Shown piece by piece: positions 17,351 to 23,595 of a stretch of 64,000 nucleotides of DNA. Below the pieces are notes generated by a model. The model was not told where the DNA came from. It saw only the letters and a list, made by a program, of their open reading frames with translations, and did no database searches. Each line of letters starts with the position of its first letter. The first letter of the stretch is position 1. The stretch lies in assembly GCF_056712565.1 (NCBI RefSeq), contig NZ_CM160072.1, one strand, 5' to 3'. Both the position numbers and the translations under genes were made by a program.

Positions 17351-17375
17351 ATTTCCGTAATATCTTCCTGAAGTC

Positions 17376-18815
17376 TCATATATTTTCGCCATTGTTGGCG
17401 ATGAGATCCCGATACCAGTAAAACGATGCTTTACGTATCCGTTCCAGCGTTCCCTTCCCTTCGTTGTCTTTATCGACATAAATCATTCCGTAGCGTTTTT
17501 TCATTTCTCCTGTTCCGGCAGAAACCAGGTCAATGCAACCCCACGGGGTGTAGCCAATTAAGTCAACACCATCTTCAACTACGGCTTTTTTCATTTCCCG
17601 AATATGGGAGGAAAAGTAATCAATGCGATAGTGATCGTTCACCGTGCCGTCAGCTTGTCTCTGGTCAACCGCACCAAATCCATTTTCGACAATAAACAGC
17701 GGCAACTGGAAATGATCCCAGAACCAGTTGAGTGAATAACGTAGCCCTGCCGGATCAATTTGCCATCCCCATTCGGATGTATCGATATAAGGGTTGCTGA
17801 CCAAATCTCGTGGTTCAACATAATCCAGTTGCGGATTATCTGGCGAAAATTGCGTCGTAAAAGACATGTAGTAGCTAAAGCCGATAAAGTCGACACAACC
17901 TCTGGCAAGAATCGCGTTATCATCTGGTGTGATATCGAGGTTGAATCCTTTCCTTGCAAAGTAATTCAGCATATGTTGCGGATAATATCCACGAGCATGA
18001 ACATCAGTAAACCAGTAACGACGATGCATCGCTTTCGTGGCCATCATCATATCGTTGGGTGCACACGTCAGAGGATAGATGGGGCACATAGCAATCATAC
18101 AGCCGATATTAAATTCAGGATTGATCAGTTTTCCAGTCTGTACCGCCAGGGCACTGGCAACTAACTCATAATGTACCGCCTGGTACATTATTTGTTCGCG
18201 CTCATTGAGATCTTCCTCTGGCGAATACAAGATACCGGAATTAGTAAATGGACACAGGCTTTCGCTGAAATTCACCTGATTATTGATTTCGTTAAACGTC
18301 ATCCAGTACTTTACTTTTGCTTTATAGCGCGTGAAGACCGTTGATGCGAAGTGGATAAAAAAGTCGATCAGTTTACGGTTTCGCCAGCCACCATATTTTG
18401 TCACCAGATGATAAGGCATCTCAAAATGCGAAAGCGTCACCACAGGTTCCATTCCCTGCTTCAGGCATTCATCGAAGAGATCATCATAAAATTGTAAACC
18501 CTCTTCATTCGGCTCCTGTTCGTCACCTTGCGGAAAGATTCGTGTCCAGGCAATGGAAGTTCGAAAGCATTTGAATCCCATCCCGGCAAATAACTGAATA
18601 TCTGTTTTATAGCGATGATAAAAATCAATTGCTTCATGATTGGGATAATTAAGTCCGTCGATAACGCCTTCTGTCACTTCACGCGGCACCCCGTGAGCGC
18701 CAGCAGTCATTACATCAGCGATACTGATGCCTTTTCCTCCTTCATTCCAGCCACCTTCCAATTGATGTGCGGCTACCGCACCGCCCCATAAAAAATCTTC
18801 TTTAAATCCTGACAT
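17376..18815 (-). CDS. 6-phospho-beta-glucosidase (glycoside hydrolase family 1), ~479 aa
   Basis: [17 protein letters not shown]-terminus, TFNEINN acid/base motif, IVENGFGA nucleophile motif; start MSGFKEDF preceded by AAGGAG. Confidence 0.85.
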
Positions 18816-18838
18816 ACACAACTCCTTAACTAAATAGA

Positions 18839-20512
18839 TTACCACCAGACTTCCGCCTGGATGCCGGCCATAAACTCGTCTTTGCTGTTCTCATTAAACT
18901 TAAAATTCGATAATTCGTTATCCAGAATATTGATATACGTCCCGTAGAAGCGAATTTCTGGTCGTGAACCTAAAATACTTTCACCCACTTTCAATGCATG
19001 CCAGAGTGTCGTTTTATAAGCCGATTCATTTAGCGTTACCCCCTGCTGAGTTTTGTTCTGTTGCTTAAACCAGCCTAATTCAAGCCCCGTCTGATTCCAT
19101 GTATTCCAGATCCAGGCCGGTCTTATTACGGTGCGAATACTGTCAAAATCACTATGAGCGCCACTTTCATAACTATAAACATCTTCGCCATGAGAATAGA
19201 CAAGCGCGTTAGCCATAATAATATTGTCAGTCAGATACATCTCGCCCTGAGAGATTAAACGCCAGGCGATCCCATTGGTATGGTCACCATAGTAATAGCG
19301 ACCATGCGCCATCGTATTACTGGCATCTGAGAAACTGGCAAAACTGCTGGCATAGGAATTATTGGCAACCTGTAACGTAAATTCATTAAACGTATCGCGT
19401 TGCAAGTTTTGCCGTAAAACAGAAGCCAGCATCCAGCTATCTTTCATTTCAAAATAACTGTCGTCATTTTCATTATCTTGTTGTTGATCCGTTTTATTAG
19501 GTGCGGAATATTTAGCCATTAATGACAACGTCGCATCATCCCATAACGGGATATTGCGATAACGAACATCCACAGAATTGGTATTCATCTGACTGGTACG
19601 CGTAAAATCACGAGAGTAAACATCGACATCATCTCGGCTTAAGGACATATCAAACAGCCCTACACCAAGCGCCCAGTTTTCAATCCCCACACCCGCGGCA
19701 ACATCCGTGGTTAAGGTTTTCCAGTCCAGCATTTGGATCTCATATTGCGGGAGTTTATGTTTGCCGACCCAGAATTCTGCCTCTCGTGCGAAGGGTAAAA
19801 AACCTCGCGTTGTCAGATAAATATCACTGAACTGCATGATATTTTCATTGGCACTGTCACCAAACCAGGCATCGTTATACTGCTGACCTACGTTTCCATC
19901 ATAGGTAACGACCGCATTTGCCGTTCTACCGTCCTGATTATAAACACGCTGATTTAAGGTCAGGTCAAACCAACCACTCATCTCGTTACCAAAACGTCCC
20001 AGAGAACCCGCTGCATAAGTTTGTGGTGAGCCGTGATTACCGGTGCCCCAGCCTGAGCGGAAGTACCCCTGATAGCTGAATCCAATATCATCCTTTATAT
20101 ATTTACTGATATCTTTCAGGGTCACGCTTTCGATAGTGGTTTTATCGCCTTTACTTTCAATAACGGCAATTTGCTGCGATCCATTTATAGTATGTGCTGC
20201 GGCAAACGAGTTCTGTTCACCGTTTTCATTTTTGATGTTATCAGCAACGGGAGATGTCGCTGATATTTCGGCAAGCGAGGCCGATTGATATTTATTTTCT
20301 GTGATGCTTTTTTGTAATGTCGAAAGTCGGAATTTATATACTCCCAGTTCATTCTGTGTTGCTTTCAGCTCTTGTTTATTTTGCGACAATTCATTTTCAA
20401 GCAATTCAAGGCGCTGCTCTATGGTTAATTTTGTTGCCATCGCGTTCAACGGAAACAATGCTGTAATAATAGAAATAGACAAAAGGCTGACGTTAAGCGT
20501 CTTTATATTCAT
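18839..20512 (-). CDS. Carbohydrate-specific outer-membrane porin (LamB/ScrY/BglH family) with N-terminal coiled-coil extension, 557 aa
   Basis: Signal peptide, heptad-like region ([27 protein letters not shown]), aromatic-rich beta-barrel body ending in W. Confidence 0.75.
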
Positions 20513-20566
20513 GACTTATCCTTAAGAGTGTAGTAATTTCCTCCAGATATCGCACTGGAGAAAAAA

Positions 20567-20881
20567 TCAGGCATGGAGCTCTTTTCTTAATGAAATAATT
20601 TCCCTGGCTAAATCCTGGCATAATATTGCATTCATCAAATGATCCTGTGCATGTATCAGAATTAAATTAACTTCTATTTTGCCACAGCCTTCATCCTGAC
20701 TAATTAACGCGGTCTGAATCTTATGCGCCTGAAGACAGGCAGATTCAGAGCTGGCCATTAGTTTAGTTGCGCCCTGCCAGTCTTTTTGCCCGGCACAACG
20801 TATGGCTTCCATCGCATCAGAACGAGCCTGTCCCGCGTTGATCAGTAACTCCATAACAAGTTCTTCATCTGCAAACATCAC
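20567..20881 (-). CDS. PTS lactose/cellobiose-family EIIA component, 104 aa
   Basis: ChbA-like size and helical sequence. Confidence 0.8.
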   Translation of the reverse strand: MMFADEELVMELLINAGQARSDAMEAIRCAGQKDWQGATKLMASSESACLQAHKIQTALISQDEGCGKIEVNLILIHAQDHLMNAILCQDLAREIISLRKELHA

Positions 20882-20905
20882 AATCTCCTTCCTGGGTAAA
20901 TGGAA

Positions 20906-22228: not shown

Positions 22229-22342
22229 TTTTTTATACCTGTTGTTCTGGATATTTATACATCCCAATAAAGCATGTATGCCATATCCATTTTATGATGT
22301 GTGAAAAGTTAGTTCAGGTAATAGTTTAATAATATTAGATTA

Positions 22343-22654
22343 TTACTCTTGCAGTAGTTTCATCGCAAATTCAAGAACTGCCTGTCCGTTCATTGTGCCA
22401 TAGTCTTTCATCTCGATAACGGCTACAGGCATTTTCCCCTGTGCAACGGCTTCAATCTCTGGTTTCTGAAAGCGAACTTGCGGACCAAGTAAAACAACGT
22501 CAACTTCGTTATTTTTAATTTTCCCTTTAGCCTCTGCAATCGCCAATGCGGAAATATTAACTTCAAGTGAAATAGCGGTAGCATGATCAATCATACGTTT
22601 AACCAGCATACTGGTTGACATGCCCGCAGCGCAAACTAACAATATCTTTTTCAT
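22343..22654 (-). CDS. PTS lactose/cellobiose-family EIIB component, 103 aa
   Basis: MKKILLVCAAGMSTS with the phospho-cysteine loop typical of type-3 IIB. Confidence 0.85.
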   Translation of the reverse strand: MKKILLVCAAGMSTSMLVKRMIDHATAISLEVNISALAIAEAKGKIKNNEVDVVLLGPQVRFQKPEIEAVAQGKMPVAVIEMKDYGTMNGQAVLEFAMKLLQE

Positions 22655-22852
22655 ATTTTTCCTTACTGGTATATAACAGACTACATTGTGTAAATATCAT
22701 ATCCCACAGTAGCTACACGTCCTGGTACATTGATCACAGTAATACAGCAATAAAGTTGTTCAACAACAGGGTGATAATTAAACGACTCGGCCATACGATA
22801 AACTAATCAGGTCTCAACTCCTTGTTTTCAATGGCTCTTAAAAGGTGCAAAA

Positions 22853-23551
22853 GTGATTTTTCAAAAGATTGCCCGCTTACTTAAATCCGAGATCAATGGC
22901 AATTCATGGCATGTTGGTGATTTGTTGCCGTCAGAAGCGGAACTCGCTGTTCGTTATAATGTTTCGCGTAATACCCTGCGTAAGGCATTATCCCTGCTGG
23001 AAGGCGAAGGAATTATTCACAGAAAGCATGGTTCAGGAACATACATTCAAAAAAAGAATTTTGTTGCACACATTGATCACATGAACAGTTTCAGTGAAAT
23101 TGCACATAAAAGCGGCAAAGAGGCAGGAAGTCAGATTATGAAATTTGAAGTGCAGGATGCTTCTCCTACTATTGCGACTGAGCTGAATTTAGTGACTGGT
23201 GAGCAGGTTTATTACATAAAGAGACTGCGATTCATTGAGGATAATGCAGCACAATTAGAAGAAACGTGGATGTCAGTGGCACGTTTTCCTGATTTAACCG
23301 TATCGCATATGCAAAAATCCAAATTTTCGTATATTGAGAACGAATGCGGGATCAAAATCATTGGCACCTTTGAAACTTTCTCCCCGACTTTTCCTACCCC
23401 AGAAATCGCCAGTATTTTACGGATCAGCCCACGGGATCCCATACTTAAAATTCAGACCCAGGCTGTGGATAGTAACTCTATTCCGCTGGATTATTCGTTA
23501 CTTTACAGCAATATTTTCGAGTTCCAGGTAAAGTACTTTTTTCCGCGATAA
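22853..23551 (+). CDS. GntR-family (HutC-type, UTRA effector domain) transcriptional regulator, 232 aa, likely GTG start
   Basis: N-terminal winged HTH (LPSEAELAVRYNVSRNTLRKAL); divergent from the PTS operon. Confidence 0.8.
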   Translation: MIFQKIARLLKSEINGNSWHVGDLLPSEAELAVRYNVSRNTLRKALSLLEGEGIIHRKHGSGTYIQKKNFVAHIDHMNSFSEIAHKSGKEAGSQIMKFEVQDASPTIATELNLVTGEQVYYIKRLRFIEDNAAQLEETWMSVARFPDLTVSHMQKSKFSYIENECGIKIIGTFETFSPTFPTPEIASILRISPRDPILKIQTQAVDSNSIPLDYSLLYSNIFEFQVKYFFPR

Positions 23552-23557
23552 AAGCAG

Positions 23558-23592
23558 ACGCACAGAGTGCTGGCATCACATTCTGTGCGTAT
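23558..23592. terminator. Hairpin between the regulator gene and convergent eamA
   Basis: 8-bp stem acgcacag/ctgtgcgt; weak U-tract. Confidence 0.4.
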
Positions 23593-23595
23593 GGT

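What the first reader, a model, noticed from the sequence alone, without database searches (positions are those of the whole stretch)
17352..23595. Strain-variable ~6.2 kb PTS-porin-phospho-beta-glucosidase cassette between marB and eamA
In the recalled K-12 order marB is followed directly by eamA. Here six genes sit between them: a minus-strand operon of EIIB, EIIC and EIIA (cellobiose/lactose family), a 557-aa LamB/ScrY-type porin with an N-terminal coiled coil, and a GH1 6-phospho-beta-glucosidase, plus a divergent GntR/UTRA regulator. The block is visibly more AT-rich than its flanks and is bounded by hairpins at 17325-17350 and 23558-23592. No integrase, transposase or direct repeats were seen, so the acquisition mechanism is unclear. 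A dedicated porin suggests a larger beta-glucoside or oligosaccharide substrate rather than a monosaccharide; the substrate and the effector of the regulator are unknown. The ~200-bp divergent promoter region (22655-22852) should hold the operator.
Basis: partly seen in the sequence, partly recalled or inferred. Interest (0 to 1): 0.7.

Follow-up and report, generated by a model that had tools for sequence, protein, structure and literature searches.

The report
Known bgc beta-glucoside operon of E. coli
The six genes between marB and eamA are the bgc operon described in 2009, a normally silent system for importing and splitting plant-type beta-glucoside sugars; about half of E. coli genomes carry it, so the finding is real but already known.

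Summary
The block is AT-rich, bounded by strong hairpins and has no mobility genes. The window is 100% identical to E. coli type strain ATCC 11775.

This is not new. Gene content, order and regulator type match the published bgc operon (bgcEFIHA plus bgcR; Neelakanta, Sankar and Schnetz 2009). [quoted passage not shown] The substrate is therefore not unknown. The porin is a 52% paralog of BglH, so it does not imply a large substrate.

What I add:
- 2,493 of 5,426 complete E. coli genomes carry the near-complete cassette and 2,480 have the empty junction.
- The cassette has diverged in step with its flanks and sits at the same junction in E. albertii, so it is old, not recently imported.
- The empty site keeps the ancestral marB/eamA terminator hairpin also seen in other genera, so it is not a deletion scar.
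- Only about 10 nt next to the junction is allele-specific, which implies the two forms are exchanged by homologous recombination.

Interest is low.

The parts
17101..17319 (+). marB, the left flanking core gene. Homology to the K-12 empty allele ends 2 nt after its stop codon (window 17321).
17324..17351 (.). Left boundary hairpin (12-bp perfect stem, 4-nt loop). It is a likely bidirectional terminator for marB and bgcA. It may be the diverged ancestral marB/eamA terminator (GGCTCTG..CAGAGCC versus ancestral GGCCCCG..CGGGGCC).
   Evidence: dG -22.1 and -22.6, z -6.1 and -7.0; conserved in SX23 and E. albertii
17376..18815 (-). bgcA, a GH1 6-phospho-beta-glucosidase of 479 aa. The catalytic motifs NEI175 (acid/base Glu176) and ENG377 (nucleophile Glu377) are present.
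   Evidence: NF007154, 1034 bits against a cutoff of 624; best PDB match 3pn8/4f66, E 2.6e-241
18839..20512 (-). bgcH, an outer-membrane sugar porin of 557 aa. It has an N-terminal signal peptide (judged by eye), a Sugarporin_N coiled-coil segment (residues 30-56) and a LamB barrel (residues 147-557). It is 52% identical to K-12 BglH.
20567..20878 (-). bgcI, PTS EIIA of the lactose/cellobiose family, 103 aa. His76 aligns with the phosphorylated His89 of ChbA (offset taken from the profile alignment; the ChbA residue number is from memory).
20906..22228 (-). bgcF, PTS EIIC of the lactose/cellobiose family, 440 aa.
   Evidence: TIGR00410, 334 bits against a cutoff of 236
22343..22654 (-). bgcE, PTS EIIB of the lactose/cellobiose family, 103 aa. 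Cys8 lies in the motif LLVCAAGMSTS and aligns with Cys10 of ChbB (residue number from memory).
22655..22852 (.). Divergent bgcR/bgcE control region of 198 bp. Its length is conserved at 186-200 bp in 20 loci from at least 12 genera.
22723..22738 (-). CRP-like site TGTGATCAATGTACCA. The half-site block ACTGTGATC (22732-22740) is invariant in 12 genera. With the candidate -10 hexamer TATGAT (22696-22701), the site centre falls at about -41.5, which is class II geometry (inference).
   Evidence: conservation; the match alone is not above chance: 32 found, 28.8 expected
22754..22787 (.). Conserved upstream blocks (GTTCATTTTT .. TGAACAACTT in most genera; GTTTAATTATC .. TGAACAACTT here). They are candidates for the BgcR operator and/or the bgcR promoter (inference only).
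22853..23551 (+). bgcR, a GntR/HutC-type regulator of 232 aa with a GntR winged helix-turn-helix (residues 4-65) and a UTRA effector domain (residues 87-218).
23558..23592 (.). Right boundary hairpin, a likely terminator for bgcR and eamA. It is present in all occupied alleles, including E. albertii.
   Evidence: inverted repeat I8
23596..24495 (-). eamA, the right flanking core gene. The only allele-specific SNPs are at 23599, 23601, 23604 and 23605. The C-terminus reads ..VKVRG in this occupied allele and ..VKVGS in the K-12 empty allele.

Best explanation
**What it is.** This is the bgc operon of E. coli: bgcE-bgcF-bgcI-bgcH-bgcA on the minus strand and the divergent bgcR.

**How it works.**
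1. Beta-glucosides cross the outer membrane through the BglH-type porin BgcH.
2. They are taken up and phosphorylated at C6 by a three-protein lactose/cellobiose-family PTS. The phosphoryl group passes EI -> HPr -> BgcI (His76) -> BgcE (Cys8) -> sugar, with translocation through BgcF.
3. The GH1 enzyme BgcA cleaves the phospho-beta-glucoside into glucose-6-phosphate plus glucose or the aglycone.

Per the literature, the substrates are cellobiose, arbutin and salicin.

**Regulation.** Transcription starts in the 198-bp divergent region. The promoter has a conserved CRP half-site in class II position and no good -35 hexamer. According to the literature it needs CRP and the activator BgcR, which leaves the operon silent ('cryptic') under laboratory conditions.

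**Evolution.** The cassette is not a recent mobile island. It was inserted once, long ago, into the short terminator spacer between marB and eamA in an Escherichia ancestor. It has diverged together with its flanks in E. coli lineages and in E. albertii. It coexists in E. coli with the ancestral empty allele at roughly equal frequency. The two states are swapped between backgrounds by homologous recombination in the flanks, and a minority of copies are decaying through IS insertion or internal deletion.

**Shown here:** gene identities, catalytic and phosphorylation residues, boundaries, prevalence, co-divergence, conservation of the ancestral hairpin.
**Taken from the literature:** substrates, low-temperature phenotype, BgcR as activator (citing paper); CRP dependence (my memory of the abstract).
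**Inferred:** promoter geometry, operator position, recombinational exchange.
For: **Gene families**
- searches give the family and domain assignments.
- BgcA's best solved relative is a phospho-beta-glucosidase.
- NEI175, ENG377, and the Cys8/His76 contexts.
- 52% identity to BglH and 50% to BglB.

**Match to the published bgc operon**
- PMC4488073 lists bgc among the four cryptic E. coli beta-glucoside operons.
- CFT073 carries the same six genes between marB and eamA. This fits the six-gene 'PTS system, cellobiose specific' variable cluster c1955-c1960 (PMC2831201).
- Nissle 1917 carries it at 99.8% identity.

**Control region**
-.

**Age and vertical descent**
- cassette genes are 96.2-98.4% identical between SX23 and the window, against 96.6-98.6% for the flanks. 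Against E. albertii the figures are 79.5-84.5% and 81.7-89.9%.
- the same junctions are found in E. albertii.

**The empty allele is ancestral**
- the hairpin GGCCCCGAcatcTCGGGGC is shared by K-12, EC958, another Escherichia lineage (L046) and, in related form, another genus (L050/L051).
- marB and eamA are adjacent in those outgroups.

**Recombinational shuffling**
- allele-specific SNPs occur only within 10 nt of the junction, and flanks otherwise follow strain background.

**Prevalence and decay**
-.

**No mobility**
-.
Against: - I could not read the primary bgc paper or obtain its deposited sequence. The identification therefore rests on gene content, order and regulator type as given by citing papers, on the CFT073 cluster, and on my memory of the abstract (porin BgcH, CRP dependence, presence in E. 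albertii).
- No public source names these proteins 'Bgc'.
- The CRP-like site is not statistically distinguishable from chance by pattern match alone. Consensus promoter and terminator scans show no enrichment.
- The AT-rich composition has not ameliorated despite long residence. That is unusual for an old insertion, though it is compatible with a weakly expressed locus.
- The published title stresses septicemic and uropathogenic strains. Here, most copies (2,118 of 2,565 matching records) belong to the 95-99% identity class, not the type-strain-like class.
Confidence: 0.87

Rival explanations
1. The cassette is a recently acquired genomic island, brought into some E. coli lineages by horizontal transfer on a mobile element. 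Its AT-richness would be the signature of foreign origin.
For: - GC is 42.5% against 48-49.5% in the flanks, and GC3 is about 0.1-0.19 lower than in most flanking genes.
- BgcA is closer to a phospho-beta-glucosidase in the PDB (3pn8) than to E. coli BglA.
- An Enterococcus plasmid shares 72.7% DNA identity over about 530 bp of bgcA.
- The same six-gene module sits at other chromosomal sites in Citrobacter and Salmonella diarizonae.
Against: - There is no integrase, transposase, tRNA or direct repeat.
- There is no genuine plasmid copy.
- Cassette divergence equals flank divergence between E. coli lineages and against E. albertii.
- The junctions are identical in E. coli and E. albertii.
- Transfer into Escherichia did happen at some point, but long ago.
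Confidence: 0.05
2. The cassette was fixed in the E. coli ancestor, and K-12-type strains lost it by simple deletion. On this view the empty junction is a deletion scar.
For: - Genuine deletions exist. E. albertii L043 and L044 and E. coli FEX669 have internal deletions. Strain 2017.17.01CC has a deletion running into eamA that leaves 105 bp of the cassette.
- IS600 and IS1 insertions also occur.
Against: - The common empty junction (2,480 genomes) contains a 30-bp spacer whose hairpin is absent from the occupied allele. That hairpin is conserved in another Escherichia lineage and, in related form, in a different genus. A deletion cannot recreate it.
- Scar-type alleles make up only about 70 genomes.
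Confidence: 0.07
3. The physiological substrate is not cellobiose, arbutin or salicin. It is a different or larger beta-linked sugar, for example gentiobiose, cello-oligosaccharides, mannobiose-type glucomannan fragments or other plant glucosides. The laboratory substrates would only be side activities seen in promoter-up mutants.
For: - The operon is reported as cryptic, and activity was seen only in mutants at low temperature (PMC3585215; PMC4488073).
- BgcR relatives include GmuR of the B. subtilis glucomannan operon.
- The effector of BgcR is, to my knowledge, undefined.
- The module is conserved in plant- and soil-associated genera such as Erwinia, Ewingella, Buttiauxella, Kluyvera and Cedecea.
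Against: - The porin is a close paralog of BglH from the aryl-beta-glucoside operon, so it gives no sign of a large substrate.
- BgcA falls in the 6-phospho-beta-glucosidase subfamily well above the curated cutoff.
- Published growth phenotypes are on cellobiose, arbutin and salicin.
Confidence: 0.2

Closest known systems
bgc operon (bgcEFIHA-bgcR) of E. coli septicemia strain i484 and UPEC CFT073 (Neelakanta, Sankar and Schnetz, Appl Environ Microbiol 2009, 75:2284)
   Same: - It has the same six gene types in the same order, with a divergent GntR-type regulator.
- It is present in CFT073 at marB-eamA, in the Nissle 1917 lineage and in E. albertii.
- Homologs occur in Klebsiella, Enterobacter and Citrobacter.
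   Different: - There is no structural difference.
- The window copy is the ATCC 11775 allele, 100% identical to the type strain.
- Prevalence here (46% of complete genomes, mostly the 95-99% identity class) is broader than the paper's title suggests.
bgl operon (bglGFBH) of E. coli K-12
   Same: - Both are cryptic beta-glucoside PTS systems with their own LamB-family porin and a GH1 phospho-beta-glucosidase.
- BgcH is 52% identical to BglH and BgcA is 50% identical to BglB.
   Different: - bgl uses a single fused glucose-family EII (BglF) and a BglG antiterminator (annotation).
- bgc uses split lactose/cellobiose-family IIA, IIB and IIC and a GntR/UTRA activator.
chb (chbBCARFG) chitobiose/cellobiose operon of E. 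coli
   Same: It has split lactose/cellobiose-family IIB, IIC and IIA. BgcI, BgcE and BgcF hit the Chb equivalog models, but below their cutoffs.
   Different: From established knowledge, chb has an AraC-type ChbR and NagC control, a GH4 ChbF and no porin. The bgc proteins are below the equivalog cutoffs, so they are not Chb orthologs.
ScrY sucrose porin (PDB 1A0S)
   Same: It shares the LamB-type barrel plus the N-terminal coiled-coil extension (Sugarporin_N).
   Different: Sequence similarity is very weak (profile E = 2.5e-5), and ScrY belongs to a different operon type.

Membership tests
bgc operon of E. coli (Neelakanta et al. 2009) | Gene content and order: IIB (bgcE), IIC (bgcF), IIA (bgcI), porin (bgcH), phospho-beta-glucosidase (bgcA), with a divergent GntR-type bgcR | tested here: met
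   compared with the description in PMC3585215. That paper swaps the IIA and IIC labels and omits the porin. The porin name BgcH is from my memory of the abstract.
bgc operon of E. coli (Neelakanta et al. 2009) | Present in uropathogenic and septicemic strains (CFT073 c1955-c1960) and absent from K-12 | tested here: met
   CFT073 has the six genes at marB-eamA. K-12 has the empty junction. c1955-c1960 is listed as a six-gene cellobiose PTS cluster absent from K-12. Old locus tags are not shown in RefSeq, so the c-number match is by position and content.
bgc operon of E. coli (Neelakanta et al. 2009) | Sequence identity to the deposited i484 bgc sequence | not tested
   The primary paper and its accession were not available.
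bgc operon of E. coli (Neelakanta et al. 2009) | CRP-dependent, BgcR-activated promoter | tested here: inconclusive
   The TGTGA half-site is invariant in 12 genera and lies in class II position relative to a TATGAT -10 hexamer. The pattern match alone is not above chance. No binding data are available.
bgc operon of E. coli (Neelakanta et al. 2009) | [quoted passage not shown] | not testable with these tools
   This needs growth assays.
PTS lactose/cellobiose (Lac/Chb) family, TC 4.A.3 | The IIC matches the family model above its curated cutoff; separate IIA and IIB carry the conserved phosphorylation His and Cys | tested here: met
   TIGR00410 scores 334 bits against a cutoff of 236. The IIA and IIB models match over full length. 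Cys8 lies in LLVCAAGMSTS and His76 in LIHAQDH. Residue equivalence to ChbB Cys10 and ChbA His89 comes from the profile offsets plus memory.
GH1 6-phospho-beta-glucosidase | Subfamily model above cutoff; acid/base Glu in the NEP/NEI motif and nucleophile Glu in the ENG motif | tested here: met
   NF007154 scores 1034 bits against a cutoff of 624. NEI is at 175 and ENG at 377. There is a full-length match to solved phospho-beta-glucosidases.
LamB/ScrY/BglH sugar-specific porins | Full-length LamB barrel domain; N-terminal Sugarporin_N extension as in ScrY and BglH | tested here: met
   Pfam LamB covers residues 147-557 and model positions 1-378 of 378 (E = 1e-79). Sugarporin_N covers residues 30-56. 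Identity to BglH is 52% end to end.
Maltoporin LamB (equivalog) | Score above the curated cutoff of the maltoporin models | tested here: not met
   NF006860 scores 198 bits against a cutoff of 394, and NF009061 scores 116 against 765. It is a family member but not a maltoporin.
GntR family, HutC subfamily | N-terminal GntR winged helix-turn-helix plus a C-terminal UTRA effector domain | tested here: met
   Pfam GntR covers residues 4-65 (3e-19) and UTRA covers 87-218 (7e-30).
Mobile genomic island | Integrase or transposase, flanking direct repeats or target duplication, tRNA or att site, occurrence on plasmids or phages | tested here: not met
   No such ORFs, no boundary repeats and no tRNA. 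The plasmid hits are mislabelled chromosome pieces.

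The most novel reading that the evidence does not exclude
The bgc presence/absence dimorphism at marB-eamA may be an ancient polymorphism that is maintained by selection, not a neutral gain or loss. Both junction haplotypes have a single origin. 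The occupied form is shared with E. albertii. The empty form keeps the pre-insertion terminator that is also seen in another Escherichia lineage and another genus. The two forms sit at nearly 1:1 in 5,426 genomes, and linkage decays within about 15 bp. One possible trade-off is a benefit from plant beta-glucoside use outside the host at low temperature, set against a cost of carrying or expressing an extra outer-membrane porin, for example as a phage or colicin receptor.
Probability: 0.15. Interest if true: 0.5.

Novelty: already known. Interest (0 to 1): 0.18.

Why it matters
This adds little beyond the existing literature. The operon, its regulator, its substrates and its patchy distribution were described in 2009.

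The modest additions are population-genetic:
- The cassette is carried by about half of sequenced E. coli, not mainly by extraintestinal pathogens.
- It is an old resident, not a recent island.
- The empty site is the ancestral allele and not a deletion scar.
- The two states appear to be exchanged by homologous recombination.

This makes it a clean example of how an accessory operon can persist as a long-lived insertion/empty dimorphism without any mobility machinery. It is also a caution against reading low GC content as recent acquisition.

Tried and rejected
- **Primary paper.** I could not retrieve it by PMC id, DOI or PubMed id. Searches on gene names, locus tags and junction terms returned only citing papers.
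- **Public names.** The names of the six exact proteins carry no 'Bgc' label.
- **Consensus scans.** Promoter and terminator scans of 17000-24000 gave counts equal to the shuffles (17 against 17.8, and 6 against 6.3), so I did not use them.
- **CRP pattern.** With up to 2 mismatches there are 32 hits against 28.8 expected, so it is not evidence by itself.
- **RNA families.** Rfam at a permissive threshold found nothing inside the cassette.
- **bgcE-bgcF spacer.** The 114-bp spacer folds unremarkably (z = -1.8) and is poorly conserved. I dropped the idea of an attenuator there.
- **Porin versus PDB.** A single-sequence search found nothing. A profile reached only ScrY, weakly.
- **Plasmid carriage.** Rejected.
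- **Poor assemblies.** MarB-anchored loci L047, L048 and L049 have fragmented ORFs, so I used them only for the junction sequence or not at all.
- **BgcR operator.** I considered several palindromes (GTTG-AA-CAAC, GTTCA-N16-TGAAC, GTTATATAC). None is conserved and palindromic in all genera, so I assign no operator.
- **Structure prediction.** Not run, because the domain evidence was sufficient.

Full report

Yes. The window is 100% identical to the chromosome of the E. coli type strain ATCC 11775 / DSM 30083. Mechanical ORF listing and the RefSeq annotation of that record agree on six intact genes between marB (17101-17319, +) and eamA (23596-24495, -):
- a 6-phospho-beta-glucosidase (17376-18815, -)
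- a 557-aa carbohydrate porin (18839-20512, -)
- PTS IIA (20567-20878, -)
- PTS IIC (20906-22228, -)
- PTS IIB (22343-22654, -)
- a divergent GntR-family regulator (22853-23551, +)

In K-12, marB and eamA are 30 bp apart.

The block is 42.5% GC against 49.5% and 48.1% in the adjacent 10 kb. It is the lowest of all 6.2-kb windows in the 64 kb. Its GC3 is 0.39-0.45 against about 0.55-0.58 in most flanking genes.

Both boundary hairpins fold far better than shuffled controls. The left one (17324-17351) has a perfect 12-bp stem, about -22 kcal/mol, z = -6 to -7. The right one (23558-23592) gives z = -4.9 and -3.4 on the two strands.

There are no boundary direct repeats, no tRNA and no integrase or transposase.

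**2. What the genes are**

- **BgcA.** NCBIfam places the glycosidase in the 6-phospho-beta-glucosidase subfamily NF007154 at 1034 bits against a cutoff of 624. It has both GH1 catalytic motifs, NEI at 175 and ENG at 377. Its best solved relative is the phospho-beta-glucosidase 3PN8/4F66 (E = 2.6e-241), ahead of E. coli BglA.
- **PTS proteins.** The IIC exceeds the cutoff of the lactose/cellobiose family model TIGR00410. IIA and IIB match the same family over full length but stay below the Chb and Cel equivalog cutoffs. The expected phosphorylation residues are present: Cys8 in LLVCAAGMSTS and His76 in LIHAQDH.
- **BgcH.** The porin has a complete LamB barrel (Pfam E = 1e-79, residues 147-557) and the Sugarporin_N segment (residues 30-56). 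It is not a maltoporin by the curated cutoffs. Among solved structures it is only weakly related to ScrY. It is, however, 52% identical end to end to BglH, the porin of the K-12 bgl aryl-beta-glucoside operon. BgcA is 50% identical to BglB.
- **BgcR.** The regulator has a GntR domain plus a UTRA domain.

**3. It is the published bgc operon**

[quoted passage not shown] Another lists bgc with chb, asc and bgl as the four cryptic beta-glucoside operons of E. coli (PMC4488073).

A comparative-genomics paper lists c1955-c1960 of UPEC CFT073 as a six-gene 'PTS system, cellobiose specific' cluster absent from K-12 and O157 (PMC2831201). I confirmed that CFT073 has exactly these six genes between marB and eamA, with three proteins identical in accession to those of the type strain.

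The primary paper could not be retrieved. The porin name BgcH, the CRP dependence, the promoter-up bgc* mutation, and the statements about E. albertii, Klebsiella, Enterobacter and Citrobacter are therefore from my memory of its abstract. My own results reproduce the taxonomic statements.

No other E. coli beta-glucoside system has this combination of split Lac-family EII components, a porin, a GH1 enzyme and a GntR regulator. I put the identification at about 0.9.

**4. Control region**

The bgcR-bgcE intergenic region is 186-200 bp in 20 loci from at least 12 genera. In the alignment the block ACTGTGATC is invariant (window 22732-22740, minus strand). It contains the CRP half-site TGTGA.

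A TATGAT hexamer lies at 22696-22701. With it, the site centre would fall at about -41.5, which is class II CRP geometry, and there is no recognisable -35 hexamer. That fits a promoter that depends on activators.

This is inference. As a bare pattern the site is no better than chance, and the consensus promoter scan was uninformative.

Two further conserved blocks (22754-22787 and about 22816-22831) are candidates for the BgcR operator and the bgcR promoter. I could not assign them.

**5. Where it came from**

- **Prevalence.** With the cassette alone as query, 2,563 of 5,426 complete genomes have a match and 2,493 have at least 80% of it. There are two identity classes: 99% or more in 446 records (including Nissle 1917) and 95-99% in 2,118. 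A 130-nt probe across the K-12 empty junction is intact in 2,480 genomes. The two states are therefore almost equally common.
- **Decay.** About 70 genomes carry degraded copies. These include IS600 and IS1 insertions, an internal deletion in FEX669, and a deletion into eamA that leaves 105 bp of the cassette.
- **Co-divergence.** Per-gene comparison shows the cassette has diverged in step with its flanks. SX23 against the window gives 96.2-98.4% for bgc genes and 96.6-98.6% for flanking genes. SX23 against E. albertii gives 79.5-84.5% and 81.7-89.9%.
- **E. albertii.** It has the full cassette between marB and eamA with the same junction sequences and both hairpins. It also has two internally deleted versions.
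- **Other genera.** The six-gene module exists elsewhere in Citrobacter and Salmonella diarizonae, and in rearranged form in Klebsiella, Raoultella, Kluyvera, Cedecea, Ewingella, Buttiauxella and Erwinia.

**6. The empty site is ancestral, not a scar**

Homology between the occupied and empty alleles ends 2 nt after the marB stop codon and resumes at the eamA stop codon.

The 30-bp spacer of K-12 and EC958 holds a hairpin, GGCCCCGAcatcTCGGGGC. This hairpin is absent from the occupied allele. It is present at the same place in another Escherichia lineage about 90% identical to E. coli (L046). In related form (GCCCCGCggatGCGGGGC) it is present in a genus about 74% identical (L050/L051), where marB and eamA are also adjacent.

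A deletion cannot recreate that sequence. The common empty allele therefore descends from the pre-insertion state.

The left hairpin of the occupied allele (GGCTCTG..CAGAGCC) may be the same terminator with paired stem changes. That would place the insertion point between the hairpin and the eamA stop codon. This is only suggestive.

**7. How the two states move**

In an alignment of eamA-ydeE from four occupied and two empty E. coli strains plus two outgroups, the only allele-specific differences are at positions 4, 6, 9 and 10 of the eamA end (window 23599, 23601, 23604, 23605). Positions 4 and 6 keep the same association in the outgroups.

From position 13 onward, SNPs follow strain background or are private to one strain. 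SX23 (occupied) is 99.0-99.5% identical to K-12 (empty) in marB and eamA. The window and EC958 (empty) are 99.1-99.7% identical across the left flank.

So each junction type has a single origin and has been moved between backgrounds by homologous recombination with crossovers close to the junction. This step is inferred and was not shown directly.

**8. Verdict**

The element is already known: substrates and regulation are published. The porin does not imply a large substrate, and low GC does not mean recent acquisition.

The new points are modest: a near 1:1 prevalence well beyond the type-strain-like allele class, an ancestral empty allele, an old single insertion shared with E. albertii, and recombinational exchange. 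Interest is low.

Noticed in passing
window 26093-26306 (-): There is a full-length match to Rfam RF01407 (STnc560, an Hfq-binding sRNA) at 282 bits against a gathering score of 55. It lies immediately 3' of dgcZ on the same strand, so it may be a 3'UTR-derived sRNA.
   Followed up: no
window about 27463-27671: Only short pseudogene remnants of ydeI and ydeJ remain between dgcZ and dcp in the type strain, CFT073 and EC958. SX23 has both genes intact. This is a second strain-variable indel a few kb from the cassette.
   Followed up: no
window about 13878-13979: yneK is reduced to a fragment of about 100 nt here and in CFT073. It is about 1.1 kb in SC418 and SX23 (frameshifted in SX23).
   Followed up: no
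L041 (EC958) eamA, alignment positions 114-238 from the eamA stop: EC958 has a cluster of about 9 private SNPs within roughly 125 bp of eamA. Several match the state in the outgroup Escherichia lineage L046. This suggests a short imported tract next to the empty junction.
   Followed up: partly
L046 12568-14032 and L049 12567-14055: These loci carry an extra rhodanese gene and an AraC/DJ-1-type regulator gene between ydeE and mgtS. The window and K-12 lack them, so this is another indel in the same neighbourhood.
   Followed up: no
L043 and L044 (E. albertii), between marB and eamA: E. albertii contigs carry internally deleted cassettes. GH1 and bgcR are kept, while the porin is truncated or lost and the PTS genes are lost. 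A full copy exists in L045, so the operon is decaying in that species too.
   Followed up: partly
Enterococcus faecalis plasmid LR961926.1, 63745-64275: There is a DNA-level match of 72.7% identity over about 530 bp to bgcA. This is unusually high for a Firmicute against E. coli, and it fits BgcA's best PDB match scoring above E. coli BglA.
   Followed up: no
window about 33384-33647: A 264-nt remnant of an MFS transporter gene (ydfJ-like) is annotated between rspB and ydfI. EC958 has a full-length ydfJ next to ydfI.
   Followed up: no
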